A stretch of 64,000 nt of DNA, from the NCBI GenBank assembly GCA_963836235.1, contig CAWIIP010000002.1, forward strand, positions 139,454-203,453, given 5' to 3'. Position 1 is the first letter of the stretch, and every line of letters starts with the position of its first letter. The DNA comes from an uncultured Pseudomonadota bacterium (lineage in GTDB: Bacteria; Oederibacteriota; Muellerivitia; Muellerivitales; Muellerivitaceae). This document shows positions 3,370-52,235 of the stretch, piece by piece. The notes beneath the pieces were generated by a model. It saw only the letters and a list, made by a program, of their open reading frames with translations. It was not told the DNA's origin and did no database searches. The position numbers and the translations under genes were made by a program.

Positions 3370-3513
3370 TTTAAAAAAACTCCTTAAAAGATTGTTAACC
3401 ACCAAGATACCAAGAGCACCAAGAACGACAAAAAGATCGAAACACAAGAAAGATATTAAAATAAAAGATTTTGTCTTTCCCTTTTCTTGGTGTCTTGGTG
3501 GTTCAAATAGATT

Positions 3514-23055: not shown

Positions 23056-23400
23056 TTAAGTGACGATTTGCCAATTCCCCACTTCCAGCTGGGACGGCAA
23101 GAAGTAGGCCTTCCCATCGGGTTGGGTCGTTTTGGTGTAGGTGACGCTGTTGGAGGGTGGGATCGCCTGGACCGACAAGCCCGTGACCGGAAAGGAATTA
23201 AGGACAGGGGTTGAGCCGGGCGTGGGGTAGGTGAGGTAATTATCGGTGACATAGACCTCAAGCGGCCCTGAGATTGGCAAGGGAGTTGGCGTGGCCTGGT
23301 TCAACGAGGGGGCGTCCGCCGCGGTGGGTACGTTTTTTTTACAGCCGTCGAGCAAAGCGAAGCCACAAGCGAGAGAAACGATTACCGACACGACCAGCAT
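23056..23400 (-). CDS. Hypothetical lipoprotein
   Basis: Start at MLVVSVIVSLACGFALLDGCKK (lipobox LDGC). First gene past the ABC transporter; start of accessory region. Confidence 0.5.
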   Translation of the reverse strand: MLVVSVIVSLACGFALLDGCKKNVPTAADAPSLNQATPTPLPISGPLEVYVTDNYLTYPTPGSTPVLNSFPVTGLSVQAIPPSNSVTYTKTTQPDGKAYFLPSQLEVGNWQIVT

Positions 23401-24373: not shown

Positions 24374-25210
24374 ATGAAAACAAACCTTAAATTAAAACCG
24401 TCCATACAAGCCGTCCTTTATGTACGGGTATCTTCTAAAGAACAAGAAAAAGGGGGGTTTTCAATCCCCGCCCAATTGAGATTGCTTCGGCAGTACGGGG
24501 AAACCCAGGGGTTTACCATTGTTAAAGAATTCCGGGACGTGGAAACCGCCAAGCAATCCGGCCGGGAGGGGTTTGGGGAGATGGTTAATTTCCTTATCAA
24601 GAATACGAACTGCAAATATTTACTGGTCGAAAAGACCGACCGTCTTTACCGAAATTTCAAGGATTACGTTTCATTAGAGGATATGGATGTGGAGATCCAC
24701 CTGGTCAAGGAAGGGTCCATCGTTTCGAATAATTCCAAATCGGCGGAAAAGTTTATCCATGGGATAAAAGTCTTAATGGCAAAAAATTACATCGATAACC
24801 TCTCGGAGGAAACGCGAAAAGGGATGACTGAAAAGGCAGAACAAGGGATTTGGCCCTCGTTAGCCCCGGTTGGTTACAAGAATGTTTTGGGAAAAGCCGG
24901 GAAAAGAACAATAAAACCTGACTCCCGGTCTGCTCCTCTTGTTATCCGCCTTTTCAAAACCTATTCATCGGGAAATTATTCCCTAGAAGGGATGGCACGA
25001 AAGTTTAAAGGAAAAGGTTTTGTTAGTGCTAAAAGGCCCTTGCACAGGAGTACCGTCCATAAAATTCTTTCGAACCAAATGTATTCAGGGCATTTCAATT
25101 GGAAGGGGAAACTTTACCAGGGGAAATATCCGCCCTTAATATCGGAAAAATTATGGGAAAAGGTACAAGGAAAATTGAGGACCAGGTGCACAACCAAATT
25201 GCAGGTTTAG
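24374..25210 (+). CDS. Serine recombinase (resolvase catalytic domain + recombinase domain), apparently truncated
   Basis: VLYVRVSSKEQ (catalytic Ser), ...KTDRLYRN..., then recombinase-domain pattern (NYIDNLSEETRKGMTEKAEQGIWPSLAPVGYKN). Ends at 278 aa where large serine recombinases continue with a zinc ribbon and coiled coil. Confidence 0.8.
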   Translation: MKTNLKLKPSIQAVLYVRVSSKEQEKGGFSIPAQLRLLRQYGETQGFTIVKEFRDVETAKQSGREGFGEMVNFLIKNTNCKYLLVEKTDRLYRNFKDYVSLEDMDVEIHLVKEGSIVSNNSKSAEKFIHGIKVLMAKNYIDNLSEETRKGMTEKAEQGIWPSLAPVGYKNVLGKAGKRTIKPDSRSAPLVIRLFKTYSSGNYSLEGMARKFKGKGFVSAKRPLHRSTVHKILSNQMYSGHFNWKGKLYQGKYPPLISEKLWEKVQGKLRTRCTTKLQV

Positions 25211-28720: not shown

Positions 28721-29515
28721 TTAACCCTTTGGGCCGACCCATTTCTGAAACTTGTAACGAGAGTTTGAGGGATTCGAAGGTTCCCCCGTGCTAATCGGGA
28801 CACGTTTGCAGCCCCTTTTGCGGAACTGTACCCCGACCGTATTTTCATGCAAGTGGACACCCCATTTTTCCAGGATTAAATCCCTGACCTGCGTTAGGTT
28901 CCAATGGACGGCCTTAATGCCGAATTTTTCCGGGCTGAACTCCAACCAGCCAACCGTTTCCCGCCACTGTTCTTCCGTTAAGGGTGAAGTCTGCTCCGGG
29001 CGTTTCCTTTTCGCCATTTTCCTCCGGAAGGAAGGCGTTCTCCAAAGTTTTCGAAGCACCTTGCTGCGCCGCCGACGGAAGCTTTTCGTTCCACTAATTC
29101 GCCTGGACATTTCCGACATCTCGGCCTTGTAAGTAGGGTCCGACCATCTGCCCCGCATATAGACCTGATGTTTCCCCCTCATTTCCCCGGACTTCCACGC
29201 CTTTTTCATTCCCTGGACAATTTTTTTCCTAAGCCGCGGGTTCTTCCATAGCTTTTTTCCCCTTTTAGAGTTTTTCTTAATTTCATCGGGAGTATGTTTC
29301 CGACCGATATTATGGGTGTTTCCGATGTGGATTTTTGAAAGGATTTGTCTGGTTTCGGGGCTGATAATGGTGCGAATTTTAAAATCTTTTATGTATTCAG
29401 CCTGTGTGAGGGAATGTTTGAAAAAAAGATGGGTGTGGCTGATGCTCCTGAAGGATTTATGGCAGATTTTGCAGTCGATCAAGGGTATTCCAGTCAAGGT
29501 TAGATTCACGACCAA
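28721..29515 (-). CDS. DNA-binding protein: MucR/Ros-type C2H2 zinc finger + NUMOD3-like basic repeats + IS630-type winged HTH, no nuclease/DDE domain
   Basis: CKICHKSFRSISHTHLFFKHSLTQAEY matches Ros/MucR finger (CLECGKSFKSLKRHLTTHH..TPEEY). GRKHTPDEIKKNSKRGKK and GKHQVYMRGRWSDPTYKAEMSEMSRR resemble NUMOD3. C-terminus EQWRETVGWLEFSPEKFGIKAVHWNLTQVRDLILEKWGVHLHENTV resembles the second HTH of IS630 transposases. Confidence 0.5.
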   Translation of the reverse strand: MVVNLTLTGIPLIDCKICHKSFRSISHTHLFFKHSLTQAEYIKDFKIRTIISPETRQILSKIHIGNTHNIGRKHTPDEIKKNSKRGKKLWKNPRLRKKIVQGMKKAWKSGEMRGKHQVYMRGRWSDPTYKAEMSEMSRRISGTKSFRRRRSKVLRKLWRTPSFRRKMAKRKRPEQTSPLTEEQWRETVGWLEFSPEKFGIKAVHWNLTQVRDLILEKWGVHLHENTVGVQFRKRGCKRVPISTGEPSNPSNSRYKFQKWVGPKG

Positions 29516-29542
29516 CGATGTGGGCGAAGCATGGCGAATAAG

Positions 29543-30118
29543 TCATTCAGGCTGGCCTTTTCCGAAAGGAACCGCCACAACGGTCCTTTTACTTGATTGG
29601 AGAACCCAACCGATTCCTGACTTGTAATAACGGCCCAACCACTGTCGGATAAGGCCTGGGCTAACTCCGAGCCGTTTTCCGACCTCGTTTACTTTCATCC
29701 CCTTCGCAAGCCAGGAAAGCGCCTGTAACTTTTCCTTCACCCAGGGCCGATCCTCTTTTTCCAAGAAAGATTTAATCTCTTGTGTGTTCATATTTCGTTC
29801 TGTGCGAGCGTTGAAATAACCTTTTTGGTTCCAAATCTTTGACAGCGCATGGAAAGGAATCTTTTGTTCAAGGAGCTTCGCTATTGATGAAAAAGAACCA
29901 TCAAAAAATACCGAAAGTTTCAGCAGGACATGAACATCCCGTGATCCTTCCCGCTCCCATCGCTTCCATTCCTCAAGGGTGCATCCACAACTAGCGGCGG
30001 CCTGTTTTGGGGATAGGTTCTTTTTCAGCCGAAGTTCCTGGATCACTTCCCCGATTTTTCGTTCAAACTCTTGGCGGGTCAATATCCCCTTGTCTGGCTT
30101 CTTTGATGATGATTTCAC
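29543..30118 (-). CDS. HTH(XRE)-HTH protein resembling the N-terminal DNA-binding module of IS630-family transposases (no DDE domain)
   Basis: 191 aa; N-terminal XRE-like HTH (IGEVIQELRLKKNLSPKQAAASCGCTLEEWKRWE), C-terminal HTH (KLQALSWLAKGMKVNEVGKRLGVSPGLIRQWLGRYYKSGIGW). Paralog at 45162..45770. Confidence 0.5.
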   Translation of the reverse strand: MKSSSKKPDKGILTRQEFERKIGEVIQELRLKKNLSPKQAAASCGCTLEEWKRWEREGSRDVHVLLKLSVFFDGSFSSIAKLLEQKIPFHALSKIWNQKGYFNARTERNMNTQEIKSFLEKEDRPWVKEKLQALSWLAKGMKVNEVGKRLGVSPGLIRQWLGRYYKSGIGWVLQSSKRTVVAVPFGKGQPE

Positions 30119-30121
30119 CGA

Positions 30122-30790
30122 TTATTTATTTTTAAGGAGTTTTTCAAAGAAATTCTTGGTTTTTGCAACTTCCGCCCTCGCATGAGCAATTGGGGCGGGT
30201 TTAACATTAACCTGGTTCCCGATGTTGTCCTCGGGACCGGGTTCTGGATCGGGCGTTGAAGGGAAAATCTTCGACTTAAACTTATCCAAAACCTCGGAAA
30301 GAGGAAGTATCCGGTCGGATGCCTTTAGTAATTCTGAGGGCTGGGAATCCTTGAAAAAACCGATCTCCACGGCTTTGCCTAGTTCCTTCACCGCATTAAG
30401 TACCGGTGAGTATTCCGAATCTTCGGTCACTACAATGGCCGTGTCAAAAAGGCCGCGGGCGGCGAAGTAGACCAAATCTGCCGAAAATATTGTTTTTTCA
30501 CCCTTTGGTTTAAAGTTTCCATCCGCTCCTGAGACAAGCCGTCCAAGGCGTAAATCCAGGTAAGGGGTCTTGCGGAGGGAATCAAAAAAGGATTGTTGCG
30601 TTTTGGATTGCTCGGTTGCAATGACGGGATCATAGGCGGAATTGTAATAATAGGTGCGAACAAGTTCCCGGTCGGGCCCGGCCAGGGCTTTGGAAAGCTC
30701 GTAATAGTCCACGCGGGTGGGGTAGTTGTTCCGCTTCAAGGCGAAGTAGAAGTTGCTACCGTCGATGAAAATACAAACACGGTTCTTCAT
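30122..30790 (-). CDS. NYN (LabA-like PIN-fold) domain protein with low-complexity C-terminal tail
   Basis: RVCIFIDGSNFYFAL ... SADLVYFAARG ... VVTEDSEYSPVL match NYN/LabA acidic-residue motifs. 3 nt upstream of the HTH-HTH gene. Confidence 0.75.
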   Translation of the reverse strand: MKNRVCIFIDGSNFYFALKRNNYPTRVDYYELSKALAGPDRELVRTYYYNSAYDPVIATEQSKTQQSFFDSLRKTPYLDLRLGRLVSGADGNFKPKGEKTIFSADLVYFAARGLFDTAIVVTEDSEYSPVLNAVKELGKAVEIGFFKDSQPSELLKASDRILPLSEVLDKFKSKIFPSTPDPEPGPEDNIGNQVNVKPAPIAHARAEVAKTKNFFEKLLKNK

Positions 30791-31180
30791 GGAAAACCTT
30801 CTTCGATTAATTTTAGGTGGGTGTTGGGGTAAGGTACAGTCAATCAGCGTCGAAATGAACGGCTGTTATGTCAAAGATCCAGGGTTGGTTAGACCTATTT
30901 TCCTTTGGCTTTTCTCGTATTCTTTTTATTTAGGGGATTTTTCAATGTTTGGATTGCGGATCCTAGGTTTCGATCCGCCATTTTGCCCCATTCCTTCACT
31001 TGCTTTATCCATTCCCGCATTTGATATCCTGAAGACTTCAAAGCTTTTGATTTTTTACCAACGGTTTTCTGGACCACTATTCCTACTCCGGTCACACATT
31101 TTCCCATGAGAGACTATCAAGCAAGCGGGTTAAGTTTAGACGCTTAAAAGAGGGTTTCAAGCCGATGGAAAAAATTGAGA

Positions 31181-31369
31181 TTAATGCCGGTTTGTTGAGT
31201 CTATGAGTTCCATTTCGTGGGGAAACCACACCTTTTCCAAGGTGCCAACCGTCACCAAGAAGCACTCTCCCGTATTATTCCCGAGCCTGAAGGATTGGGG
31301 GCTCTTGATTAAGCCTTCCTCGCGGGTTAGTTTGTGGACGACCGGGTCACCGGGTTTGAACTCAGCCAT
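31181..31369 (-). CDS. Small protein, DUF2158-like pattern
   Basis: 62 aa; FKPGDPVVHK ... GECFLVTV ... WFPHEMEL resembles the KxGDxV...GE...W..F pattern of small DUF2158 proteins (from memory). Confidence 0.35.
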   Translation of the reverse strand: MAEFKPGDPVVHKLTREEGLIKSPQSFRLGNNTGECFLVTVGTLEKVWFPHEMELIDSTNRH

Positions 31370-31771: not shown

Positions 31772-32230
31772 TTATTCCATTTCACCAAATTTACTTAGAA
31801 ACAGGTTTTGGAGCGCCATTTGTGCTTCCCCTGCATCCTCCCCTTCAAATATTAGAGTGAGTTCTGATCCATAGCTGGCCGCCAAAGTAATGAGATTTAA
31901 AATGGCATCCGGCAGATTGGCGATCTCATAGACCGCTTTTACAGGGTCCGAAACCTGGAAATAAAGCAAAACATCAATAATGATGGTGACGTTATCTTTG
32001 GTTATGACATTTTGTTTTGGAAATTCATAAACCGTCTCTCTTAAATCAATTCTTTCGACTTCCACTTTTCGGACAATATGATTGCCACCGATATCTGTCA
32101 GGGAATACCGCCATTGAATTTTTCGGGGACGGTCAAAGAACGGCCAAAGGATATTCACGCCGCTGTGAAGCAAGCGGTGATAACGTCCCAAACGCTCAAC
32201 GACGACGACTTCCGCCTGTTGCACGATCAT
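31772..32230 (-). CDS. SPFH/band-7 (stomatin-like) domain fragment lacking membrane anchor
   Basis: 152 aa; VVERLGRYHRLLHSGVNILWPFFD ... QNVITKDNVTIIIDVLLYFQVSDPVKAVYEI is the conserved SPFH core; no N-terminal TM and no C-terminal coiled coil, so likely truncated. Confidence 0.5.
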   Translation of the reverse strand: MIVQQAEVVVVERLGRYHRLLHSGVNILWPFFDRPRKIQWRYSLTDIGGNHIVRKVEVERIDLRETVYEFPKQNVITKDNVTIIIDVLLYFQVSDPVKAVYEIANLPDAILNLITLAASYGSELTLIFEGEDAGEAQMALQNLFLSKFGEME

Positions 32231-33030: not shown

Positions 33031-36000
33031 TTACCGCAGGACCAGCAATTTGAGGATATTCCGGCCCCGGTTGGTTTGCACCACCACATAGTAAAGGCCG
33101 TTGGCCAAGGGCGTTCCCCACTCATCGGCCAAAGGAATGGGCACGCTGACCCCCGGTTGGACATTGTAATAAGTTAAATCCGCTACCTTCCGGAAGGCGG
33201 TCGTGAAGATCTCGATGCTCACGTTCGATTCAAACGTCAACCCCGGATTGAGCTGAGCCACTCCCCCCGTGGAAACGGGGTTGGGATAAAGCACTGGTTT
33301 GGCCGGAGGGGCCGGGGTCCGGGTAGCCGTGGCCGTCGGCGGTGGCGTTAAAGTTTTAGTGGCCGTTGGGGTGGCCGACGCACTGGGGGTATAAGTCGGC
33401 GTGGCGGCGGCGATGGTGACCGTGGCGCCTGGAACGGGCAATCCGGTAAAGAGAAGGGCCTGGCCGTTGCTTCCCGTGGCGTCCGTGGCGCTGAAGGAAT
33501 AGTTCCCCGCCGGTGAAGAGGAGGAGAAGTTCGCGGTGACTTCGTAGGTCACTGCTCCATTGGCCCCCGGAATGGCGCTGTTGAAGCTGAGGGTGGCGTC
33601 CGGCCCGCTGAAGGCGGCGGTGGCGATAAGCGTTCCATTGGCTGATAAATTGATCGATGTGATCCCGGTGGGAGGGGTTCCCGTCTCGGAGAGGGTGATA
33701 CTGGTGAGCGTCACCGGATTGCCGCTGGGATTGTTCACCTGGATCTGTTGGATGGGTACCCCGGAAGCCCCCGGAATTTGGATGGAGTTACCCGGCGGGC
33801 TCAACCCTTGCGAGGCCGAAACCGTCACCGGCGTGGGGCTGAAAGTGGGAGTCACCGACGCCGTTGAAGTGGCGGTTTGAGTTGGCGAAGCCGAAGGCGT
33901 AGCCGTGGCGGTAGCTGTGTTTGCCGGCGTTAGCGTCCGCGTGAGGGTAGGGGTCGCCGTAGTCGAAGCCGTGGCGGTGGAAGTGGGGGTCAAGGTACTG
34001 GTCCTGGTCGGGGTTCCGGTGTTGACCAGCGTCTCGGTAGCCGTGCCCGTAGGAGTACTTGACGGCGTAGCCGTCAATGTATTGGTCGGCGTAACCGTCG
34101 GCGTAGTGGTGGCCGTTGCCGTCGAGGTGCCGGTGGGGCTGTTGGTGGCCGTCCCGGTCGGGGTCAACGAAGAGGTGGTAGTTGGGCTGTTGCTGGCGGT
34201 ATTCGTGGCCGTAACGGTGGCGGTTGAGGTCGGGGTTCCGGTGTTGACCAGCGTCGCGGTAGCCGTGCCCGTAGGAGTACTTGACGGCGTAGCCGTCAAT
34301 GTATTGGCCGGCGTAACCGTCGGCGTATGGGTGGCCGTTGCCGTCGAGGTGCCGGTGGGGCTGTTGGTGGCTGTCCCGGTCGGGGTCAATGGGGAGGTGG
34401 CAGTTGGGCTGTTGCTGGCGGTATTCGTGGTGGTTGCCGTGGCGGTACGGGTTGCGGTGGATGTCGCGGTTAAAGTCGCCGTATTGGGCAGGGTAGTCGT
34501 GGGCGTAGGGCTAAGGGTTGGGGAGAAGGTGGAAGTAGGGCTGTTGCTGGGTGTGTTCGTGGCCGTTTTGGTGGCCGTGCCCGTAGGAGTACTTGATGGC
34601 GTAGCCGTCAATGTATTCGTCGCGGTGCTGGCAGCCGTATTCGTTGGGCTGTTCATCGGGGTATTCGTGGACGTTGGAGTGGGGGTCGAAGTCGATGTAT
34701 TCGTGGGGCTGTTCGTTGCGGTCTTGGTGGGCGTATTGGTCACGGTGGGTGTGGCGGTATTCGTGGCCGTGGGGGTGGCCGTATGGCTGGGTGTGGCGGT
34801 GGGGGTATTCGTGGGAGTGTTGGTCCGGCTAAAGGTGGGGGTGCTGGAGGCGGTGCTGGTCGCCGTACTGGTGGGAGTGCTGGTTTTCGTGGGGGTAACC
34901 GTGGCCGTGGCGGTTTTTGTGGCGGTCGCCGTCGCGGTCGCGGTCGGCGTGGATGTTTTGGTGAAGGACGCCGTGGCGGTGGGGGTCGCCGTGGCGCCGC
35001 TGGAGGAGCAACCTGGATGGGTAAGTCCCTTCAGCCAGCCATAGACCTGTTGGCCTTCATAAGACGTCAGCACCCAGCCGCTGCCGGTGGAAACCGGGGC
35101 GGACAGAGTTGAGGACCAGGCCGAAAGCAGGAGAGGCGTCGCCGAGATATCCATGTCCCAAGCCATGCCCCCATAGACGTAATTCTTGTCGTTTGTGCCG
35201 TTCATGAAGGTAATCACGCTGTTCACGAAAGTGCCGCCGTCGGTGGTATTGGCCGAATTCCCGAATTCCTCGATGAACACCGGGCCGTAGGTGAGGGCCG
35301 TATCGATGTTGGACTCCCAACCCGCCGGGGTGTTGGTGCCCTTGTTGTTGTAGATATGGGCCGAGTAGACGATGCCGTTGCCTCCGGCCTTATCCACCAC
35401 AGGACTCATGCCCACGTAATAATAGGAATACTGCTGGCCGCCGACGATGCAGATGTTTTCGGCGTTGGTGCCGCTGGCCAGGGTGCTGCCGGCGCTGGCG
35501 GTAGTGCCCCGGATGGTGTTCACGATGGACTGAAGGCCGGGCGTGGTAAAGCCCTCGGAGGCCGTGCCTCCGTTTAACCAGACGGTCCAGGAAGTTGTGT
35601 AGGGCTCGTTGAAGGTGTCGAAGAGCACGGAGGGGTTGTTGGCGTAACGGGCGGCGACGCTGGCCCAGAAAACCAGGCTGTTCTCATCAGGCATGGAGTA
35701 TTGCCCGGTGGCCGAGCCCGTGGGCCCGTCGCCGGACCATTGCAGGTCCAGGTCGCAATAGATGTTGTTGGCGTTGCAGTAGGCCACGAGGGAGTCCACG
35801 AAGCTTTGGTATCCCGATTGGCTGGTGGAACCCCTGGAGCTTTGCGCGTTGCCATCCCACCAGTCCTGGTCCAGGGGGATGCGGACGCAATTGACATTCC
35901 AATATTTGACCGCCTCCTGCAGCATTGTCAGGACCCCATTGCCGCCGGCCGGATTGTCCCCTGGCGGTACGTCCCATTCCAAAGAATCCAGATTCACCCC

Positions 36001-36144
36001 GGTCAGGCGCACGGTGCAGCCGCCGCTGGCGGTGACGATTTCGTTTCCGGAAACCTTAAGCAGGGGAGGAGCGGCTTGCGCGGGAGTTGGACCGAAAAAA
36101 GTGGAACCCAAAAGCACAAAAAGCGAAAGAAAGAAAAAGTTCAT
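33031..36144 (-). CDS. Glycoside hydrolase family 5 (cellulase-like) with ~450-aa Thr/Pro/Ala-rich linker and T9SS C-terminal sorting domain
   Basis: Start at [24 protein letters not shown] (signal peptide); GH5 NEP motif ([11 protein letters not shown]); long TPT/TAT low-complexity linker; C-terminus [10 protein letters not shown]...[13 protein letters not shown]...[22 protein letters not shown] matches T9SS/FlgD-Ig-like CTD. The antisense 379-aa VAVAV ORF is spurious. Confidence 0.8.
33990..34440. repeat. Intragenic tandem repeat, 2 x 222 bp (74 aa) ~95% identical, plus degenerate further copies, in the Thr-rich linker of the GH5 gene
   Basis: Landmark ccgtcaatgt at 34071 and 34293; ggttccggtgttgaccagcgtc at 34012 and 34234 (period 222). 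Confidence 0.8.
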
Positions 36145-36900
36145 TTCGCCCCGGGACGTTTTAAGCCGGGAACCAAAGAACGTTTTCGTTTTGAAAAATA
36201 AGTTTTGTGGAGACCTGTTCAAAGTGTCACCCGATACACTGGTTAAACCGGAATTTCCCAGATGACCTTCTCTGAAAACATTGCCGGGTAATTTGTTTCT
36301 CATTATATCGCCCCCCCCCCCCCCGCTTCTTCCATCCGAATCCGGAATTTTCCGTCCTGGGCCACTGAAATAAGCCCCAGGAAAAGGTTTCTGTGCCCAA
36401 AAAAGCTGAAATTGACCTTCTGGAAAGCCAATTCTCGTTGTGAGCGCACACCTATCCTGCGGTAGTCGCTCGGGTTGAAGCCTTGATGCCTTCCTGCGGT
36501 TATCGCAGTACTGGCGCTCGCGGCCTTACCATTGCCAGTAGCCGTATCCGATTGAGGATTTCAGCAAACAGGCGTCGGGAAACCATCACCTCCGCCATCT
36601 GGAAAATAACGTACCGCGAATGACGGATGACATTAGCCCCGATCTTGATGAGTTTTTCCCTCAAGGTCGTTAGCGACCAATGTTTCACCAGTTCTGGCAG
36701 TGCCAGTCGGCGCAGGAAGTTGCCCAGATTGTAGGCCAGGGCGAATAGTTGTAAGCGCACTTGGTTGTCCGCGAAGTCGTGGCAGCTTAGTCTTGTCCAC
36801 TTCATCGCATACTTTCCCTCTTTGATCCACTGCTCAGCCGTGCCTCTTCCGTTGTAGAATTTCACCACCTGGGGTGCCGGTCGTCGCATGTTCGTTACGA
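35985..36900. repeat. Segmental duplication copy A (916 bp): 5' end/upstream region of GH5 gene plus right end of IS1380-family element; identical to 60757..61724 except a 53-nt indel and poly-C length
   Basis: Direct comparison of the two regions; identity starts at aatccagattcacccc and ends at catgttcgttacga. Poly-C tract is C14 here (36311..36324) versus C13 in copy B. Confidence 0.9.
36248..36900 (-). mobile_element. One-ended remnant of IS1380-family element (right inverted repeat + 3' noncoding region + last 129 codons of transposase)
   Basis: Identical to the 3' part of the complete element at 61073..62778. IRR CCGGAATTTCCCAGATGA begins at 36248. Transposase fragment 36500..36889 is a pseudogene. 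Identity stops abruptly at 36900. Confidence 0.85.
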
Positions 36901-43991: not shown

Positions 43992-44876
43992 CTATTTAAA
44001 TATCTCATTCAGCACGTATGCCAACCTTATCCCAGCCTTCTCAAGCTGTTGGTCCACGATGGGGCGCATTTTATCAAAGTAATCACCCGGAAGGGGCTTA
44101 TCGCTGTAATCCTGGGTCCCTGGGTCCATTCCTTTGTAGACCTTAGTCTTGGCGATCATGTAACTCTCGAAAACCCAATTTTTCTCACTCCCCTTGGTCC
44201 AGGTGGCCGCCTGGTCCCCGGGGATCGCCTTTTCAAGGGTGGAGGCCAGCTCCCGGGGATCCTCCTCGGTCTTAGACTCAATTAGATGGTCCCAAAGAGC
44301 GTGTAATTTGATTTTAGCCCCGTGGCCACGGTGGCCAGGGGCTTTGAACCGGACCATCTTCTCGTTTCCCCCGCGGTCGCCGTCATCGGCACAATGAAGG
44401 GGTTGGTGTAAGTCGCCCATGAAGTGGACGACGAATTTTAGGGCCTCTAAGCGCTTGGATTTAGGTTGGGTTTCATCCCCCAAAACACCTTCAAATATCT
44501 GGAGCTGGTTGATGACGCAATCATTATTGGGGCAATAATCCTGCTCGTCTTTAAGGGTTAGGTCTTTCCGGATAGGGAGGTCGATGAAATGCCACGGGGC
44601 TGTCTCACGGCGCGATTCACGGATTTGGTCCGCCCAATTTGAAATACTGGCCAGATCGTCCGGCTGCAATGAAGTCACAAGCTGAATTGCGGGCTTTGCC
44701 TGTGCCGATTCCATAGAAGAATCGGCCCCCTGGTCCAGGATGGAGGCTAATTTTGCCTTGGCGGCCGTGGCGAGGTTGTCCTGGGCGATATAGGCAATGG
44801 TTTCGTGGCCGACCGGACCCCATGCGGCCGCCGGCAATGTCCCAAAAAGATTTAAACAAAGTACGGCAAAAAGCAT
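43992..44876 (-). CDS. Secreted S1/P1-family zinc nuclease
   Basis: Start at MLFAVLCLNLFGTLPAAA (signal peptide) then WGPVGHETIAYIAQ; WHFID, HFMGDLHQPLH, LHALWD and RLAYVLNEIF motifs of S1/P1 nucleases. Confidence 0.8.
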   Translation of the reverse strand: MLFAVLCLNLFGTLPAAAWGPVGHETIAYIAQDNLATAAKAKLASILDQGADSSMESAQAKPAIQLVTSLQPDDLASISNWADQIRESRRETAPWHFIDLPIRKDLTLKDEQDYCPNNDCVINQLQIFEGVLGDETQPKSKRLEALKFVVHFMGDLHQPLHCADDGDRGGNEKMVRFKAPGHRGHGAKIKLHALWDHLIESKTEEDPRELASTLEKAIPGDQAATWTKGSEKNWVFESYMIAKTKVYKGMDPGTQDYSDKPLPGDYFDKMRPIVDQQLEKAGIRLAYVLNEIFK

Positions 44877-45161
44877 CCCGAAAGCCCTCAAGCTTTCGAA
44901 GGATTGTGCGAAATTCCTAAAGGTCAAAGGGGGTTTGTTTGACCTGATAAATGGAATTTTGCAAAAAAGGAGGGGTATCAGGCCCAGCGAATTGATAATC
45001 TTCGCGGCCTTCGACGAGGCTTCAAGCCGAGGAGAAAGCTTTGGGGGTGCCAATACCGGGGGTATTGGTATACCGGAGAGGTGTGACTTCGTCGAAATTA
45101 GGGGCCATAGCGTGAAAAATATTTTCATTTTTTGTACTCAATTCCTACTTCTTTTTAAAAA

Positions 45162-45770
45162 TCAATTATTAGGCGTTTGATGAGGTTTAATTCTGGTCCT
45201 GGCCCGGTCCGCTCTCGGAGGCTGATTGTGTTTGCGGGAGTTCAGCGCCCACCCGATTCCTGTCTTATAATACCGCCACAGCCAGTGCTGGATGAGACCG
45301 CCTCTCCTCCCTAGCTTTTTTGCCACATCATTAGTTTTCATCCCTTCCGCCAGGCAGGCAAGCGCCTGCAACTTTTCCCTCACCCACGGTCGTTCCTCTT
45401 TTGCCAAAAAGGACTTAATCTCCTGCAAGTTCATATTCCGCACAAGGCGAGGATGGAAAAATCCCTTGTCTGTCCAATTCTTTGATAGCGCATTGAGAGG
45501 GACCTTTCGTTCAAGGATCCTCGTTATTGAAGAAAAGGAACCGGCAAGAAATACCGAGAGTTTCAATAGCACGTGAACAGATTGGACTCCTTCTTGCTCC
45601 CATCGTCCCCATTCCTCAAGCGTGCATCCACAATTGTCGGCAGCTTGTTCTTGGGTAAGGTTCTTTTCCAAGCGGAGTTCCCTGATTACTTCCCCGGTTT
45701 TTCGCTGAACATCTTTCCGTGTGAGCTTTACCCTCGCGGTGAGCGATTTTTGGGAGTCGAATCCTTTCAT
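45162..45770 (-). CDS. HTH(XRE)-HTH protein, diverged paralog of 29543..30118
   Basis: 202 aa; same architecture and ~60% aa identity (TGEVIRELRLEKNLTQEQAADNCGCTLEEWGRWEQEG ... KLQALACLAEGMKTNDVAKKLG). Confidence 0.5.
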   Translation of the reverse strand: MKGFDSQKSLTARVKLTRKDVQRKTGEVIRELRLEKNLTQEQAADNCGCTLEEWGRWEQEGVQSVHVLLKLSVFLAGSFSSITRILERKVPLNALSKNWTDKGFFHPRLVRNMNLQEIKSFLAKEERPWVREKLQALACLAEGMKTNDVAKKLGRRGGLIQHWLWRYYKTGIGWALNSRKHNQPPRADRARTRIKPHQTPNN

Positions 45771-46090
45771 TTTTCATACTCAATTCTCAACTCTTGAAAG
45801 TAATCTAAAATCCGCCGTTTGATGAGGTTGAGTTCAACGACCTTCAGTTCCCTGCCCAAAAGGCCGACGATTTCCAGCTTGGCGTCCCGGAAGACCATAT
45901 TGAAAGCTAGTTCAAACCATTCGGTTTGTTCTGCGGGGGCAAGGTCTTGGTATGGTTTGTGGAGACGTTTGGGCCAAGGATAATCCATGAGCAGTTCCGG
46001 GCCCAAAAAGCCATTCATGAAATTCGCCACACGGAGGGCGGCGGGATTTTTATTGCTGTGGGGGTTATAAGAACCAGGGGTTTCAGACAT
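45767..46090 (-). CDS. Hypothetical protein
   Basis: 107-aa ORF, 4-nt overlap with downstream gene. Confidence 0.4.
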   Translation of the reverse strand: MSETPGSYNPHSNKNPAALRVANFMNGFLGPELLMDYPWPKRLHKPYQDLAPAEQTEWFELAFNMVFRDAKLEIVGLLGRELKVVELNLIKRRILDYFQELRIEYEK

Positions 46091-46105
46091 GAATATCTCT
46101 CCTCA

Positions 46106-46441
46106 TTAAATCCGCCGTCCGAAAAAGGCCGTTAAGGATGCCCATGAAGCGACCAGGGCAAAGAGCCAAAACCAAAACGGATGAGGTAAGGTCGTAAAGA
46201 CCGATACGGTCCCTGACGAAATGAACCGGCCCAAGACCGAGAAGATGTGGTAGGTGATAATCAGCCTATAGGCCGAAAAGACCAAAAGCACGGCCAAGGC
46301 GATCCCGAATAGTATCCTGACGAAATTCATTCCCGCCAATTTTGAGAAATGGAAAAACCTTTCGAGGTGTTCGTTGTTCATAAGGGCCGACCTTTCAGTC
46401 GGTGGTTCCTCCGAAACGATCCTGCTGTCTGTGTTTTCCAT
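46106..46441 (-). CDS. Small membrane protein (2 TM)
   Basis: Start chosen at MENTDSR; two hydrophobic helices. Confidence 0.4.
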   Translation of the reverse strand: MENTDSRIVSEEPPTERSALMNNEHLERFFHFSKLAGMNFVRILFGIALAVLLVFSAYRLIITYHIFSVLGRFISSGTVSVFTTLPHPFWFWLFALVASWASLTAFFGRRI

Positions 46442-46455
46442 AATCCAATCCTTCC

Positions 46456-46734
46456 TCAATAGTCGATCACTTCTTCCCACCGGCTCACTTTAGACGCGGG
46501 TTCCGCCTCGTGAAAGCCGAGGCCGTTGCACCTGGGGCAATCGGCCCCGCCGGGCAAGACACCTCTGCCCCCGCACGGCTTACAGCTTTCCAACCATATC
46601 GGCTGTTTCCCGCTTCCGTTGCAATCCCCACAAGGGAATTTTCCGGAATAAAATATGCCTTCCAGCCAAAAACCCGGCTCCCCTGGCTCGTCGCCCGTCC
46701 CCCCGCATTTTTGGCAGTCGACTTCGCCTCTCAT
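46456..46734 (-). CDS. Small DnaJ-type zinc-finger protein (four CxxCxGxG repeats)
   Basis: CQKCGGTG, CGDCNGSG, CKPCGGRG, CPRCNGLG. Confidence 0.5.
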   Translation of the reverse strand: MRGEVDCQKCGGTGDEPGEPGFWLEGIFYSGKFPCGDCNGSGKQPIWLESCKPCGGRGVLPGGADCPRCNGLGFHEAEPASKVSRWEEVIDY

Positions 46735-46845
46735 GGTGCCGTCCTGGATTGCATTTTAGGGCCATCCAAAAAAATCCTGAACAGAAAGTCGAATAATTTT
46801 AGACCGGGATACCGCCCCGCCGGCCAGGCCGGCGGGGCGAAAATC

Positions 46846-47214
46846 CTAATACTCGTTGGGGACCATCAGGACAGGTTTACCCTCCTGCATAGCGACGTAA
46901 AACTTCCAGGTTCCCTCCGGGAAATCCGTGAATTCGATCTCCTGCCGCACAATTTCTGGCCGGTCGTCGTCCTCCTTCATCGTAAGGATCGCCTTGGAGG
47001 CTTTGACTTCAAGCGTCCAAAACTGGATTTCCTCCTTCCGGGCATAACTGAAAATGGCGTCGATCAGCCAATAGGCCCCGGCAATCTCCGCCACGGCCTG
47101 GACCCCTTCGGTGTAAATGCCTCCCGTAATGTGCTTGAAGTAGCTCACGCTACCCGTGCTCATGGCAAAAACCTCCTCTATCCTCAACTTCTTTACGGCT
47201 TCTTCCCTGTCCAT
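46846..47214 (-). CDS. Hypothetical protein
   Basis: 122-aa ORF; SD AAGGAG upstream; preceded by structured element A1. Confidence 0.4.
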   Translation of the reverse strand: MDREEAVKKLRIEEVFAMSTGSVSYFKHITGGIYTEGVQAVAEIAGAYWLIDAIFSYARKEEIQFWTLEVKASKAILTMKEDDDRPEIVRQEIEFTDFPEGTWKFYVAMQEGKPVLMVPNEY

Positions 47215-48444: not shown

Positions 48445-48933
48445 TTAAACCAAAAGCCCTGCGGTGCGGAAGGAAAAGTGGCCTTCGTGGGTGACTATCA
48501 AGTGATCATGAACGGTTATCCCCAGGGCACGGGCGGCGGTGATAATTTGGCGGGTCAATTGCTTGTCCCCTTCCGATGGTTCAAGGCTTCCGGCTGGGTG
48601 ATTGTGGGAAAATATGATCCCCGTGGCGTTTAACTCCAAAGCTTTTTTTAGTACCTCTCTTGGATAAACGGCGGTATGGTCCACGGTTCCTTCGCTGTTC
48701 AAAACCGTTTCTAAAACGTGGTTGCGGTGGTCGAGGTACATGGTGACAAAAGCCTCTTTGTCCCTGCCTCCGATGTATTTGGCAAAATAGGCCACTACAT
48801 CATCTGGGCTTGTTACAACCGGGCCTCTCTCGTAATCGGTCCTTGCTTCGGACCATGAAACCGGGGGAACCGTGGGGGGAATTTTGAACATCACTTCCAA
48901 AGGCATTTCTAACTGCTTGATTCTCTTGCTCAT
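48445..48933 (-). CDS. radC: RadC-like JAB/MPN domain protein
   Basis: HNHPAGSLEPSEGD (HNHPSG JAMM motif) and surrounding RadC-family conservation. Confidence 0.8.
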   Translation of the reverse strand: MSKRIKQLEMPLEVMFKIPPTVPPVSWSEARTDYERGPVVTSPDDVVAYFAKYIGGRDKEAFVTMYLDHRNHVLETVLNSEGTVDHTAVYPREVLKKALELNATGIIFSHNHPAGSLEPSEGDKQLTRQIITAARALGITVHDHLIVTHEGHFSFRTAGLLV

Positions 48934-50555: not shown

Positions 50556-50873
50556 TTAGGCACTCTTTTTCCCGCGGGCGAGTTCCCTTTCAAATAGAAT
50601 CCGCACCCCGAAAGCGTGAAGAACCTTTTCTAAACTCGAAAGGGTTGGATTTCCCTTCTCGGAAAGCATCGTGTAAAGGGATTCCCTCGCAAGTTGTGTT
50701 TCCTTGGAAAGCTTTTTCATCCCGCCTAGGGCGTCGGCCACGTTCTTCAATGCCTTCAAAAAGTATTTAAAATCTCCGGTTTCCCAAGCGGCGTTTATGT
50801 ATCGGACCCGTGTTTTAAGGTCTTGAAGTTCTTCAAACAAATAACTTTTATGGTCAATCAATCCAAATTTCAT
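50556..50873 (-). CDS. Addiction-module antidote protein, HTH type (HI1420-like)
   Basis: LKALKNVADALGGMKKLSKETQLARESLYTMLSEKGNPTLSSLEKVLHAFGV matches the conserved HI1420-type antidote pattern; 4-nt overlap with upstream toxin gene. Confidence 0.7.
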   Translation of the reverse strand: MKFGLIDHKSYLFEELQDLKTRVRYINAAWETGDFKYFLKALKNVADALGGMKKLSKETQLARESLYTMLSEKGNPTLSSLEKVLHAFGVRILFERELARGKKSA

Positions 50874-51244
50874 TTCACGCTCCCTTTAAAAGCCGCCCAT
50901 AGCTTGGTGGCTTTCTTTGTGTCATTATCCTGATTGTCTTTTTCTCCCCCACAAACCACGACGATGATGGCTCCCTTATGATAGCCGTAATAAACCCGGA
51001 AACCTCTTCCGTAATGAATCCTTAATTCCCAAAGGCCCCCGGTCTTTGGCAGGTCGTGATGATCGCCAAAATTCCCGTCCTCCATCCGGTCAACCGCCAT
51101 CCGTATAAGGTCCTTGGCGGTTTCGTCCTTTAAGCGGCGGTGCCACTCCTTGTATAAAACCTTACCGTCTACCTCCAAATATTTAACTACAAAGGGGTGG
51201 TTTTCCATGCCTGAACCTAGTGTAATATTTATATTACTCATTGT
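50870..51244 (-). CDS. Addiction-module killer protein, RelE/ParE superfamily (HI1419-like)
   Basis: GDHHDLPKTGGLWELRIHYGRGFRVYYGYHKGAIIVVVCGGEKDNQDNDTKKATKLW matches the HI1419-type toxin pattern. Start chosen at MSNINITLG; upstream part of the 172-aa ORF looks non-coding. Confidence 0.65.
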   Translation of the reverse strand, partial: TMSNINITLGSGMENHPFVVKYLEVDGKVLYKEWHRRLKDETAKDLIRMAVDRMEDGNFGDHHDLPKTGGLWELRIHYGRGFRVYYGYHKGAIIVVVCGGEKDNQDNDTKKATKLWAAFKGSVK

Positions 51245-51301
51245 CAAATCTTCCTTTCGAAAACAATCCCGAAAGGGGCCGCACCGAGACAAAGAACACC
51301 C

Positions 51302-51343
51302 CAAAAAAAGCCCCCCGGTTTGAAACCGGGGGGCTTTTCTTCC
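51302..51343. terminator. Bidirectional rho-independent terminator downstream of ardC
   Basis: Hairpin GCCCCCCGGTTTGAAACCGGGGGGC flanked by caaaaaaa (5') and ttttcttcc (3'). Confidence 0.65.
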
Positions 51344-51362
51344 TGAAAGGATGGAGCTGTTA

Positions 51363-52235
51363 TTAAGCGGCTTCCTCCTTCTTTTCAAATTTCACGCCTA
51401 AGATAAAGTCGGCTGCGGATTGGGCGAGTGATGCCGCCCGGAAAATGGCGCGGGTGTCATCCTTTAAAACCTTGATCCAGTTTTGGACATAGGCGGCGTG
51501 TTGGGTGTCGTATTCGTAGCCGACATGCCCAGCCAAGAAAGCCCCGCCTATTTCGGCGACAAGTTCCTCGAAGGCATAATCAACTGAACCGAAAACCAGG
51601 GACTGCTTGCGGTTAAGCCGTTTCGGGTGGCCGCTCCAGTGGGTTAGCTCATGGTAACTCGTGGAAAAAAATTTCTCCTCCGTCTTGAAAGAACGGCGAG
51701 GGGGAAGGTTGATATAGTCCAAAGTCGGGGAGTAAAAAGCCTTGTCGGGGTTTTCTTCAACGATCTTCGCCCCGGATTGGGTGAGGATGCGCTCGGCTTC
51801 CTCGTTCTTGTTGAAAGGCTTTTCCTCGGCGCTCTTGGGCCGCAAGTGGTCGAGTCCCTCGGTTTGGTCCAGGTTGAAAACCGTAAAATATTTTAGGTAT
51901 TTGATAACCTTCTTTTCAAAATCCCCTTCCGCTTTTTCCTCCTTCACCGTCAAGGGCTTGAAGAAAATGACCTCAACCCCCTTGGCCCCGGCCTTGATGT
52001 TGCCTCCCGCTGTTTTGGCCTGTTGGTAGGTGAGCCAAGAGTTACAGGAAAAACCCTGGCGGCTCGCAACCGAGGTAAGCCAAATAACATTCACCCCCCG
52101 GTATGCCTTCCGGGTGGCGGCGTTCTTGGGGAAGTTTCCGGTTTTAATCCAGGGCGTTTCCCAAAAAAGATTTCCTTTCTCCATGTCCTCCAAAATTTGG
52201 TTGGTGATTTTCTCCATCAAATCGTTTGTTTTCAT
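51363..52235 (-). CDS. ardC: ArdC-like antirestriction protein (N-terminal ssDNA-binding domain + C-terminal HExxH zincin domain)
   Basis: N-terminus KAYRGVNVIWLTSVASRQGFSCNSWLTYQQAKTAGGNIKAGAKG matches ArdC-N; C-terminal YHELTHWSGH metalloprotease motif. Confidence 0.75.
   Translation of the reverse strand: MKTNDLMEKITNQILEDMEKGNLFWETPWIKTGNFPKNAATRKAYRGVNVIWLTSVASRQGFSCNSWLTYQQAKTAGGNIKAGAKGVEVIFFKPLTVKEEKAEGDFEKKVIKYLKYFTVFNLDQTEGLDHLRPKSAEEKPFNKNEEAERILTQSGAKIVEENPDKAFYSPTLDYINLPPRRSFKTEEKFFSTSYHELTHWSGHPKRLNRKQSLVFGSVDYAFEELVAEIGGAFLAGHVGYEYDTQHAAYVQNWIKVLKDDTRAIFRAASLAQSAADFILGVKFEKKEEAA

What the first reader, a model, noticed from the sequence alone, without database searches (positions are those of the whole stretch)
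28721..30790. Three-gene module: NYN RNase-fold protein, HTH-HTH protein, MucR-zinc-finger/NUMOD3/IS630-wHTH protein; the HTH-HTH gene has a paralog 15 kb away
30122..30790 (NYN/LabA-like PIN-fold) is separated by 3 nt from 29543..30118. That gene's two HTH domains look like the N-terminal DNA-binding part of IS630/Tc1-type transposases. The next gene (28721..29515) combines a Ros/MucR C2H2 finger, NUMOD3-like repeats (normally accessory DNA-binding modules of homing endonucleases) and the second IS630-type wHTH, again without any catalytic domain. This looks like domestication of transposase and homing-endonuclease DNA-binding modules into regulators, coupled to a putative RNase. It could be a toxin-regulator or defence-type module. 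A diverged paralog of the HTH-HTH gene (45162..45770, same strand) brackets the 15-kb segment holding the cellulase, IS remnant, R-M system and S1/P1 nuclease.
Basis: partly seen in the sequence, partly recalled or inferred. Interest (0 to 1): 0.55.

Follow-up and report, generated by a model that had tools for sequence, protein, structure and literature searches.

The report
Mobile-element NYN–regulator gene pair plus DNA-binder
The three genes are real cargo of an integrated mobile element in an uncultured FCPU426-phylum bacterium, but only the NYN gene and its helix-turn-helix neighbour (plus a small upstream gene) travel together, the NYN protein has lost one of its usual catalytic aspartates, and the third gene is a separate DNA-binding protein.

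Summary
The three ORFs exist at the stated coordinates and are under purifying selection. The domain calls are largely right. The gene at 30122-30790 is a clear NYN/LabA protein. The gene at 29543-30118 combines an XRE-type HTH, which is not transposase-type, with an IS630-type HTH. The gene at 28721-29515 combines a MucR-like zinc finger, WxDPxYR repeats of the kind found in homing endonucleases, and an IS630-type winged HTH, with no catalytic domain. The strict NUMOD3 call is not supported.

The "three-gene module" does not hold. The recurrent unit is a 62-aa gene, NYN and HTH-HTH, preceded by a specific 25-nt element. It appears in about 7 independent loci. The zinc-finger gene appears with and without this unit. 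NYN copies linked to the HTH-HTH gene carry Lys or Ala in place of one canonical aspartate, whereas the chromosomal NUDIX-linked paralogs are canonical. NYN and HTH-HTH have discordant histories, so their partners have been shuffled by recombination.

Best reading: this is a self-regulated accessory operon on an ICE- or plasmid-like element. HTH-HTH would act as a C-protein- or Aca-like autoregulator, and NYN as an RNA-directed effector with a remodelled active site. A toxin-antitoxin reading is the main rival. No DDE domain lies downstream, and no inverted repeats flank the genes. Interest is moderate to low.

The parts
31181..31369 (-). p62, a 62-aa gene of unknown fold that recurs with the NYN gene
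   Evidence: tblastn finds it next to NYN in L007, L009, L011, L013, L019 and L084 (55-89% identity). In L027 it lies between NYN and HTH-HTH. dN/dS is 0.06-0.29. It has no Pfam or PHROG hit.
30895..31107 (-). 70-aa ORF between p62 and NYN, a variable insert
   Evidence: It is shared only with L011/L012, at 91% aa identity, and is absent from L007, L009 and L019. It has no family hit.
30848..30872 (-). Conserved 25-nt element GACATAACAGCCGTTCATTTCGACG, 58-82 nt upstream of the NYN start; candidate operator or promoter
   Evidence: It is aligned across the NYN-HTH2 loci. It occurs once in the window, against 0 expected. Among the 75 loci then held, it is found only in the HTH2-linked NYN loci L007, L011, L012, L013 and L019. 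L009 carries it with one mismatch.
30122..30790 (-). NYN/LabA-type PIN-like protein, 222 aa, with a non-canonical acidic set (D10, N13, K99, D105, D124, E126)
   Evidence: Pfam NYN E=9e-18. PADLOC HEC-09 E=2.8e-13. A family profile aligns to the solved LabA-like structure 2QIP.
29543..30118 (-). HTH2, 191 aa: an XRE-type HTH (aa 23-76) plus an IS630-type HTH (aa 128-172)
   Evidence: Domain hits are. The AF2 model has pLDDT 77, and its closest folds are C.BclI, C.AhdI and C.Esp1396I (TM 0.84-0.87 on the target). The family has 17 clusters. NYN lies immediately upstream in 7 loci.
28721..29515 (-). ZF, 253-264 aa: a MucR-like C2H2 finger (aa 15-48), four to five WxDPxYR repeats (aa ~85-170) and an IS630-type winged HTH (aa 176-260). 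The likely true start is the TTG at 29482.
   Evidence: Supported. Homologs start at MI[DE]CKICHK. The gene is in the same frame as HTH2, separated by one TGA and 9 codons. dN/dS is about 0.2.
45162..45770 (-). HTH2b, a 202-aa paralog of HTH2
   Evidence: It is 67% identical to HTH2. It is the last regulator-type gene of a conserved operon, DUF6876 / 92-aa zinc ribbon / 124 aa / 107 aa / HTH2b, followed by an S1/P1 nuclease and then variable cargo.
45767..46090 (-). 107-aa upstream partner of HTH2b, overlapping it by 4 nt
   Evidence: It has no family hit.
43992..45128 (-). S1/P1 nuclease gene directly downstream of HTH2b
   Evidence: Pfam S1-P1_nuclease E=2e-63. The same neighbourhood is seen in L004, L005 and L080.

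Best explanation
The region is accessory cargo of an integrated ICE- or plasmid-like element of a candidate-division FCPU426 bacterium. The functional unit is a small operon, p62 - NYN - HTH2, preceded by a conserved 25-nt element. I infer that HTH2 is the operon's own DNA-binding regulator, in the manner of R-M controller (C) proteins or Aca proteins that sit beside the effector gene they throttle. It has an XRE-type domain plus a highly conserved IS630-type HTH. I infer that NYN is the effector and acts on RNA. Because Lys replaces one canonical metal-binding Asp, it may bind RNA or cleave it with altered chemistry rather than act as a standard NYN RNase. The benefit to the element could be addiction, defence or anti-defence; this is not resolved. 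The zinc-finger gene downstream is a separate sequence-specific DNA-binding protein. It is assembled from a MucR-type finger, homing-endonuclease-type repeats and a transposase-type winged HTH, and it moves independently among the same family of elements. Shown here: gene reality, domain content, recurrence of the pair, specificity of the upstream element, active-site substitutions, recombination between partners, and the mobile-element context. Inferred: autoregulation, the RNA target, and the biological role.
For: Mobile-element context. ArdC, RadC, DUF6876, a Gp49-like protein, a type III R-M system and a serine recombinase lie in the window, next to core genes (SecA, LigA, RibBA) on the left. 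Homologs sit beside UmuDC, ParAB, TraG, AbiE and IS21.

Recurrence. NYN lies immediately upstream of an HTH2-family gene in the window, L007/L013, L009/L010, L011/L012, L019, L027 and L084. p62 accompanies it. The 25-nt element is found only in HTH2-linked NYN loci.

Selection. dN/dS is 0.12-0.22 for NYN, 0.19-0.53 for HTH2 and 0.06-0.29 for p62.

HTH2 fold. The XRE domain is closest to the R-M controller proteins C.BclI, C.AhdI and C.Esp1396I. Both HTH2-family contexts place the gene next to a nuclease-fold gene: NYN, or S1/P1.

Active site. HTH2-linked NYN copies read DNKDDE, DNKDEE or DNADDE at the six key positions. NUDIX-linked chromosomal paralogs read DNDDDD.

ZF independence. The zinc-finger gene occurs without HTH2 in L001, in L072-74 (where it is upstream of NYN) and in L075.
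Against: No experiment or binding prediction links HTH2 to the 25-nt element. The element's variants follow the NYN lineage rather than the HTH2 lineage: the window resembles L011 for the element and NYN, but resembles L007 for HTH2. Simple operator-repressor co-variation is therefore not seen. Most NYN-family loci, about 50 of 59 in genomes, have no HTH2. L027 has a canonical NYN next to HTH2. The promoter scan is not above background. The similarity to C proteins is generic to XRE domains. The function of NYN/LabA proteins in bacteria is poorly known, and the HEC-09 candidate gave no phage protection when tested (bioRxiv 10.1101/2024.01.29.577857).
Confidence: 0.45

Rival explanations
1. Type II toxin-antitoxin or abortive-infection pair. 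NYN would be a PIN-like RNase toxin, and the downstream HTH2 would both neutralise it by direct binding and repress the operon, as in toxin-first systems such as HigBA or MqsRA.
For: The gap between the genes is 3 nt, and the pair lies on a mobile element. The NYN family is multi-copy per genome in FCPU426 MAGs. NYN paralogs are tightly followed by unrelated small ORFs, and HTH2 paralogs follow different upstream partners, which is a mix-and-match pattern. HTH2 gives weak MqsA-family hits. NYN hits the PADLOC candidate HEC-09.
Against: The HTH2-linked NYN clade has lost a canonical active-site Asp, and relatives have Glu at the others. NYN and HTH2 have discordant histories. Between the window and L011, dS is 0.13 for NYN but 1.66 for HTH2; between the window and L007, dS is 0.60 for NYN but 0.10 for HTH2. 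This argues against a tightly co-evolving protein-protein pair. No NYN/LabA toxin has been demonstrated to my knowledge. HEC-09 was inactive in the only test. HTH2 is larger than typical antitoxins and consists of two DNA-binding domains.
Confidence: 0.22
2. Decaying remnant of an IS630-type element. HTH2 and ZF would be the two halves of a broken transposase N-terminus, separated by a nonsense mutation and insertions, and would now have no function.
For: The HTH2 C-terminus matches IS630 model positions 4-44, and the ZF C-terminus matches positions 46-133. The two ORFs are in the same frame, separated by a single TGA and 9 codons.
Against: Both genes are under purifying selection. HTH2 homologs end with varied tails and lack ZF downstream in most loci. 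ZF homologs start independently at MI[DE]CKICHK behind unrelated genes. Only 213 nt separate the ZF stop from the next, full-length beta-lactamase-family gene, so there is no room for a DDE domain. No inverted repeats flank the genes. The bit scores of 19.7 and 22.9 are far below the IS630 equivalog cutoff of 100.
Confidence: 0.05
3. The three genes are unrelated cargo placed side by side, with no functional coupling at all. NYN would be a housekeeping-type LabA paralog, and HTH2 a regulator of other element genes.
For: The NYN family has a chromosomal NUDIX-linked ortholog in about 20 genomes. HTH2-family genes also occur without NYN, in the DUF6876 operon and after an ImmR/ImmA-like pair.
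Against: NYN-HTH2 adjacency, with gaps of 3-15 nt in most cases, recurs across lineages with 58-94% NYN identity and through recombination events. The 25-nt element is specific to those loci. The active-site change is correlated with linkage to HTH2.
Confidence: 0.15

Closest known systems
LabA/DUF88-type NYN domain proteins (Pfam PF01936; solved structure 2QIP, VPA0982) and the PADLOC candidate HEC-09
   Same: The NYN/PIN-like domain spans the full length (Pfam E=9e-18; HEC-09 HMM E=2.8e-13). The protein keeps D10, D105 and D124 and the family-wide D116, E142, D148 and D159.
   Different: Lys replaces the Asp of the 'GVD/WDV' motif, and Glu replaces the second Asp of 'DxD'. The gene is not embedded in an Hma system. 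It is paired with a two-HTH protein. HEC-09 itself has no demonstrated activity.
R-M controller (C) proteins and Aca-type HTH autoregulators of mobile-element effector operons
   Same: The XRE-type domain of HTH2 is structurally closest to C.BclI, C.AhdI and C.Esp1396I. The gene is small, adjacent to a nuclease-fold gene on a mobile element, and a conserved short element lies upstream of the operon.
   Different: HTH2 has a second, transposase-type HTH that is the most conserved part of the family. No C-box-like symmetric operator has been demonstrated. Whether it regulates anything is untested.
Toxin-first type II TA systems with XRE-HTH antitoxins (HigBA, MqsRA) and PIN-toxin systems (VapBC)
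   Same: The gene order, the short gap, the mobile-element location, the multi-copy family, and the pairing of a PIN-like fold with an HTH partner.
   Different: The acidic set of the putative toxin is degenerate. The partners have recombined between lineages. There is no evidence of toxicity.
IS630/Tc1-mariner transposase N-terminal bipartite DNA-binding region
   Same: The HTH2 C-terminus matches model positions 4-44 and the ZF C-terminus matches positions 46-133. The ZF profile also hits a 942-aa protein made of nine HTH_33-type repeats.
   Different: There is no DDE domain and there are no inverted repeats. The two halves lie in two separately evolving genes. All scores are far below the family cutoff.
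Ros/MucR C2H2 zinc-finger proteins
   Same: The motif CKIC-x9-H-x-H-x4-H followed by 'SLTQAEY' aligns to ROS_MUCR profile positions 65-99. The distant homolog P0146 passes the Pfam threshold, and 9 of 123 relatives hit the family.
   Different: Only the finger core is present, without the Ros/MucR N-terminal region. The window protein itself is below threshold. The finger is fused to repeats and a wHTH.
Repeat-type DNA-binding arrays of homing endonucleases (NUMOD3 and related WxDPxYR repeats in GIY-YIG, HNH, Vsr and DUF559 proteins)
   Same: The repeat region gives 1975 profile hits. Among 123 of the best 150 hits (147 of them new), 20 carry GIY-YIG, 12 NUMOD3, 12 REase_MTES_1575, 9 DUF559, 5 HNH and 4 Vsr.
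   Different: The window protein has no nuclease domain and no significant NUMOD3 hit. Its repeats belong to the WxDPxYR class, which Pfam picks up as spurious GerD and NHase_alpha matches.

Membership tests
NYN domain (PF01936) | Pfam score above the gathering cutoff over the whole domain | tested here: met
   65.6 bits against a cutoff of 24.2; aa 4-163 match profile positions 1-143 of 145.
NYN domain (PF01936), as an active RNase | Complete set of conserved acidic residues: the strand-1 D, the 'GVD' D, the following D, and 'DxD' | tested here: not met
   D10, D105 and D124 are present. Position 99 is K, whereas it is D in 83 of 120 relatives and in 2QIP. Position 126 is E. Activity itself cannot be tested here.
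HEC-09 (PADLOC candidate defence gene) | Match to the PADLOC HMM | tested here: met
   E=2.8e-13 over aa 3-158. No curated cutoff is available.
HEC-09 (PADLOC candidate defence gene) | Embedded within an Hma or other defence system; confers phage defence | tested here: not met
   No Hma genes are adjacent; the neighbours are p62, HTH2 and ZF. The type III R-M system is 7 kb away. The original candidate gave no protection. Defence by this gene was not tested.
Type II toxin-antitoxin system | Two small adjacent co-oriented genes with a short gap or overlap | tested here: met
   The gap is 3 nt. Gaps are 3-15 nt in L007, L009 and L011.
Type II toxin-antitoxin system | Toxicity of one product, neutralised by direct binding of the other | not testable with these tools
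   There is no multimer prediction or experiment. The discordant histories of the two genes and the degenerate active site count against it.
IS630 family transposase (NCBIfam NF033545) | Score above the equivalog cutoff (100 bits) | tested here: not met
   19.7 bits for HTH2 and 22.9 bits for ZF.
IS630 family transposase (NCBIfam NF033545) | DDE catalytic domain and terminal inverted repeats | tested here: not met
   Only model positions 4-133 of 299 are matched. Just 213 nt follow ZF before a beta-lactamase-family gene. No flanking inverted repeats were found.
XRE-type HTH (HTH_3 / HTH_31) | Pfam score above cutoff; five-helix fold | tested here: met
   HTH_3 scores 27.1 against 23, and HTH_31 scores 29.9 against 27. 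The fold matches C proteins, SinR and ClgR with rmsd about 1.7 A.
Transposase-type HTH (HTH_23 / HTH_28) | Pfam score above cutoff | tested here: met
   HTH_28 scores 31.4 against 25, and HTH_23 scores 30.4 against 24.6, over aa 128-168.
Ros/MucR (PF05443) | Pfam score above cutoff | tested here: not met
   The window protein scores 13.8 bits against 25.4. The distant homolog P0146 scores 26.6 bits. The Cys2-His2 motif is visible in the sequence.
NUMOD3 (PF07460) | Pfam match | tested here: not met
   No hit at E<=1. Twelve of 123 profile relatives carry NUMOD3 elsewhere in their sequence.

The most novel reading that the evidence does not exclude
The HTH2-linked NYN clade would be a catalytically remodelled NYN protein (Lys in the metal site). 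Together with p62 and the two-HTH regulator it would form a previously undescribed mobile-element system for defence, anti-defence or addiction, confined so far to candidate phylum FCPU426. The zinc-finger protein would be a nuclease-free descendant of homing-endonuclease and transposase DNA-binding modules that acts as a site-specific guard or targeting factor for these elements.
Probability: 0.12. Interest if true: 0.6.

Novelty: new variant of a known kind. Interest (0 to 1): 0.35.

Why it matters
If the p62-NYN-HTH2 cassette is a working unit, it would give a first functional handle on small LabA-type NYN proteins. These are abundant in bacteria but almost uncharacterised. It would also provide a natural pair of variants to compare: canonical chromosomal copies and Lys-substituted mobile copies. 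The zinc-finger protein shows that homing-endonuclease repeat arrays and a transposase winged helix can be recombined into a protein with no catalytic domain, which bears on how sequence-specific regulators arise. All of this lies in an uncultured peat and soil phylum, so its practical reach is limited until the genes are expressed heterologously.

Tried and rejected
1. Read-through or fusion of HTH2 and ZF. They are in frame across a single TGA, and this is also so in L002. I rejected the idea because the window and L002 share about 99% identical DNA at that junction, which points to one origin. Other HTH2 homologs have unrelated tails and no ZF downstream. ZF homologs also start independently.

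2. A DDE ORF downstream. There is none, and no room for one.

3. Terminal or inverted repeats around the genes. Only short matches at chance level were found.

4. Sequence search of solved structures. NYN alone gave no hit. ZF gave only spurious GerD and nitrile-hydratase repeat matches.

5. AF2 model of ZF. It was poor (pLDDT 62), and Foldseek gave only generic winged-helix matches with E>=0.1.

6. Promoter and terminator scan. Results were not above shuffled background.

7. Rfam. Nothing was found in 27-33 kb or in the whole window.

8. A shared 'TTTCGACG' site upstream of both NYN and S1/P1. The 8-mer is not enriched: 5 occurrences against 3.3 expected.

9. Viral contigs. They hold no HTH2 relatives and only distant repeat matches for ZF, so there is no sign of a phage origin.

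10. The paralogs as recombination boundaries. The only rearranged locus (L002) breaks inside the S1/P1 gene and the last third of HTH2, not at homologous paralog positions. It may also be an assembly chimera.

11. One Pfam call failed on a size limit, and one contig look-up found nothing.
Full report
**1. What is in the sequence**

The three ORFs are present on the minus strand exactly as described: 30122-30790 (222 aa), 29543-30118 (191 aa, GTG start) and 28721-29515 (264 aa, TTG start). Three nucleotides separate the stop of the first from the start of the second. A paralog of the middle gene lies at 45162-45770 on the same strand and is 67% identical over 165 residues.

None of these is a chance ORF. 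Against homologous loci, dN/dS is 0.12-0.22 for the NYN gene, 0.19-0.53 for the HTH gene and about 0.15-0.27 for the zinc-finger gene.

**2. Domain content**

*Gene 1 (NYN).* It is a clear NYN/LabA protein, with Pfam PF01936 at E=9e-18 and 65.6 bits against a cutoff of 24.2. It also hits the PADLOC candidate HEC-09 at E=2.8e-13.

*Gene 2 (called HTH2 here).* It has two DNA-binding domains of different origin.
- Residues 23-76 are XRE-type. HTH_3 and HTH_31 score above threshold. In an AlphaFold model (pLDDT 77) this domain is closest to the R-M controller proteins C.BclI, C.AhdI and C.Esp1396I, and to SinR and ClgR.
- Only residues 128-172 are transposase-like. HTH_28 and HTH_23 score above threshold, and NCBIfam's IS630 model is matched at positions 4-44.
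- This C-terminal HTH is the most conserved part of the family.

*Gene 3 (called ZF here).* On its own it gives only sub-threshold hits: ROS_MUCR at 13.8 bits, HTH_33 and HTH_32. NUMOD3 is not detected at all.
- NCBIfam IS630 matches residues 169-259 to model positions 46-133, directly continuing the stretch matched by HTH2.
- A profile of the seven ZF-family sequences, searched against 1.84 billion representatives, finds 1975 proteins, mostly through the repeat region. Of 123 of the best hits scanned with Pfam, 20 carry GIY-YIG, 12 NUMOD3, 12 REase_MTES_1575, 9 DUF559, 5 HNH, 4 Vsr and 9 ROS_MUCR.
- The most distant full-length homolog, P0146, passes the ROS_MUCR threshold with its N-terminal finger.

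The repeats are therefore of the WxDPxYR class that accompanies homing-endonuclease domains, rather than NUMOD3 proper. The ZF structure model is weak (pLDDT 62) and shows only a helical repeat region and a C-terminal winged helix.

No catalytic domain is present in any of the three proteins. Only 213 nt separate the end of ZF from a complete beta-lactamase-family gene, so there is no hidden DDE domain. No inverted repeats flank the genes.

**3. Genomic setting**

- The left part of the window holds core genes: SecA, LigA, RibBA, RibD and an NAD kinase.
- From about 23 kb onward the content is that of an integrated mobile element. It includes a serine recombinase (24374-25210), the three genes, a GC-rich GH5 cellulase, a type III R-M system, an S1/P1 nuclease, DUF6876, RadC, a Gp49-like protein and ArdC.
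- Homologs of the three genes lie next to UmuDC, ParA/ParB, a TraG-type coupling protein, AbiEi/AbiEii and IS21/ISL3 elements.
- Genomic relatives of the NYN gene are almost all in MAGs labelled candidate division FCPU426, often several per genome. This is very probably the source phylum.
- Nothing related to HTH2 was found in viral contigs.

**4. Which genes belong together**

*The recurrent pair.* Context look-ups show NYN immediately upstream of an HTH2-family gene in the window, L007/L013, L009/L010, L011/L012, L019, L027 and L084.
- A 62-aa gene (window 31181-31369) accompanies the pair in these loci. In L027 it sits between the two genes.
- A 25-nt element lies 58-82 nt upstream of the NYN start (window 30848-30872). 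It is conserved across these loci even where the upstream gene differs.
- That element occurs once in the window against 0 expected. Among the 75 loci then held, it is found only in HTH2-linked NYN loci.

*ZF is not a constant partner.*
- It follows HTH2 only in the window and in L002. These two share about 99% identical DNA across the junction, which indicates a single origin.
- In L001 it stands behind an unrelated 79-aa gene, upstream of UmuDC and ParAB.
- In L072-74 it lies 600 nt upstream of an NYN gene that has a different downstream partner.
- In L075 it follows a shorter ZnF-repeat paralog.

*The pairing is not universal either.* About 50 of 59 genomic NYN loci lack HTH2. HTH2-family genes also occur at the end of a conserved operon, DUF6876 / zinc-ribbon / 124 aa / 107 aa, followed by an S1/P1 nuclease. 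The window paralog is one of these. They also occur after an ImmR/ImmA-like pair.

**5. The NYN active site**

A family profile aligns over its full length to the solved LabA-like protein 2QIP. This identifies the canonical acidic positions: the strand-1 Asp, the 'WDV/GVD' Asp, the following Asp, and 'DxD'.

Among 120 close relatives, position 99 is Asp in 83 and Lys in 11, including the window protein. Position 126 is Asp in 93 and Glu in 18, again including the window protein.

Sorted by neighbourhood, the six key positions read as follows:

| NYN copy | Signature |
|---|---|
| Chromosomal, next to a NUDIX gene | DNDDDD |
| HTH2-linked: window, L011 | DNKDDE |
| HTH2-linked: L007, L009, L013 | DNKDEE |
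| HTH2-linked: L019 | DNADDE |
| HTH2-linked: L027 | DNDDDD |

So the mobile, HTH2-linked clade is under purifying selection but has a remodelled metal site. A standard RNase-toxin role is therefore uncertain.

**6. Recombination**

The window NYN is closest to that of L011 (dS 0.13), while its HTH2 is closest to that of L007 (dS 0.10). The reciprocal comparisons give dS 1.66 and 0.60. Partners have therefore been exchanged by recombination between the two genes.

ZF is also mosaic relative to L002. The first 30 codons are identical even at synonymous sites, and the rest is diverged (pS 0.4-0.9). The repeat region is the most variable part in every comparison.

**7. Interpretation**

The best-supported reading (confidence 0.45) is a small self-contained accessory operon, p62-NYN-HTH2, of an ICE- or plasmid-like element. 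HTH2 would be its DNA-binding regulator, working like C proteins or Aca proteins that sit beside the effector they control. NYN would be an RNA-directed effector with altered chemistry. ZF would be a separate DNA-binding protein that circulates in the same elements.

The rivals are:
- **A type II TA or abortive-infection pair (0.22).** The layout and the mix-and-match partners favour it. The degenerate active site and the shuffled partners count against it.
- **Uncoupled neighbours (0.15).**
- **A decayed IS630 remnant (0.05).** Selection on both genes and their independent distribution contradict it.

The regulatory link, the substrate and the biological role are all inferred, not shown.

**8. 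Comparison with the known, and novelty**

Each domain is known. NYN candidates in defence contexts have been proposed, although HEC-09 was inactive when tested (bioRxiv 10.1101/2024.01.29.577857).

The new points are these:
- The recurrent pairing of a Lys-substituted NYN clade with a two-HTH regulator.
- The ZF architecture of MucR finger, homing-endonuclease-type repeats and IS630 winged helix, found in only 8 clusters among 5.8 billion.

I rate this a new variant of known kinds, with moderate to low interest (0.35).

Noticed in passing
window 33031-36303 (-): The GH5 cellulase ORF (1090 aa) is a strong composition outlier. Its GC is 0.60-0.64 and its GC skew reaches +0.39, against about 0.45-0.5 GC around it. 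It contains internal 222-nt and 24-nt tandem repeats at 34006-34994, so it looks like a separate acquisition inside the island.
   Followed up: partly
window 31772-32230 (-): This 152-aa ORF joins an SPFH/Band-7 N-terminal part (aa 2-115) to an HPr-like C-terminal part (aa 109-144). It looks like a fusion of two gene fragments. Only the HPr-like end has a match in L020.
   Followed up: no
window 24374-25210 (+); L082 1896-2720: A serine recombinase (Resolvase and Recombinase domains, 278 aa) lies at the left edge of the island. A copy 89% identical lies directly after an HTH2-family gene and before an S1/P1-like gene in metagenome locus L082.
   Followed up: partly
window 23071-23309: This short stretch is 77% identical to part of a 374-aa gene that lies downstream of NYN-HTH2 in L011/L012. 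It is probably a remnant marking the decayed end of the element, next to the core ABC-transporter genes.
   Followed up: no
L026, L036-L046, L048, L049, L053, L055, L056, L062, L069, L071 (around 3270-4600 in each): About 20 FCPU426 genomes carry a conserved chromosomal pair: a NUDIX hydrolase (186 aa) followed by a canonical NYN paralog. This suggests an ancestral RNA-turnover role for the family.
   Followed up: partly
window 45162-47214 (-); L004, L005, L006, L080: The operon DUF6876 / 92-aa CxxCxGxG zinc-ribbon protein / 124 aa / 107 aa / HTH2b / S1/P1 nuclease is 98-100% identical on at least 10 contigs. It is followed by different cargo in each: type III R-M systems, a PIF1 helicase or DUF4357. 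This looks like a cargo hotspot.
   Followed up: partly
L002 1-1635: The 5' part of the S1/P1 nuclease gene is joined head-to-head to the last third of HTH2, followed by ZF. This is either an inversion junction or a metagenome assembly chimera.
   Followed up: partly
L047 161-2788: Here an HTH2-family gene follows an XRE gene and a 179-aa HExxH protein (an ImmR/ImmA-like pair). A HicA/HicB-like pair lies nearby on the opposite strand.
   Followed up: no
window 50870-52235 (-) and 48445-48933 (-): ArdC (ArdcN plus a zincin peptidase), a Gp49/HigB-like protein and RadC are present. These genes are typical of conjugative-element leading regions. No type IV secretion genes were seen in the window.
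   Followed up: no
window 61324-62703 (-): There is an intact IS4-type transposase (DDE_Tnp_1_4, E=3e-132). It is unrelated to the IS630-type HTH modules discussed here.
   Followed up: no
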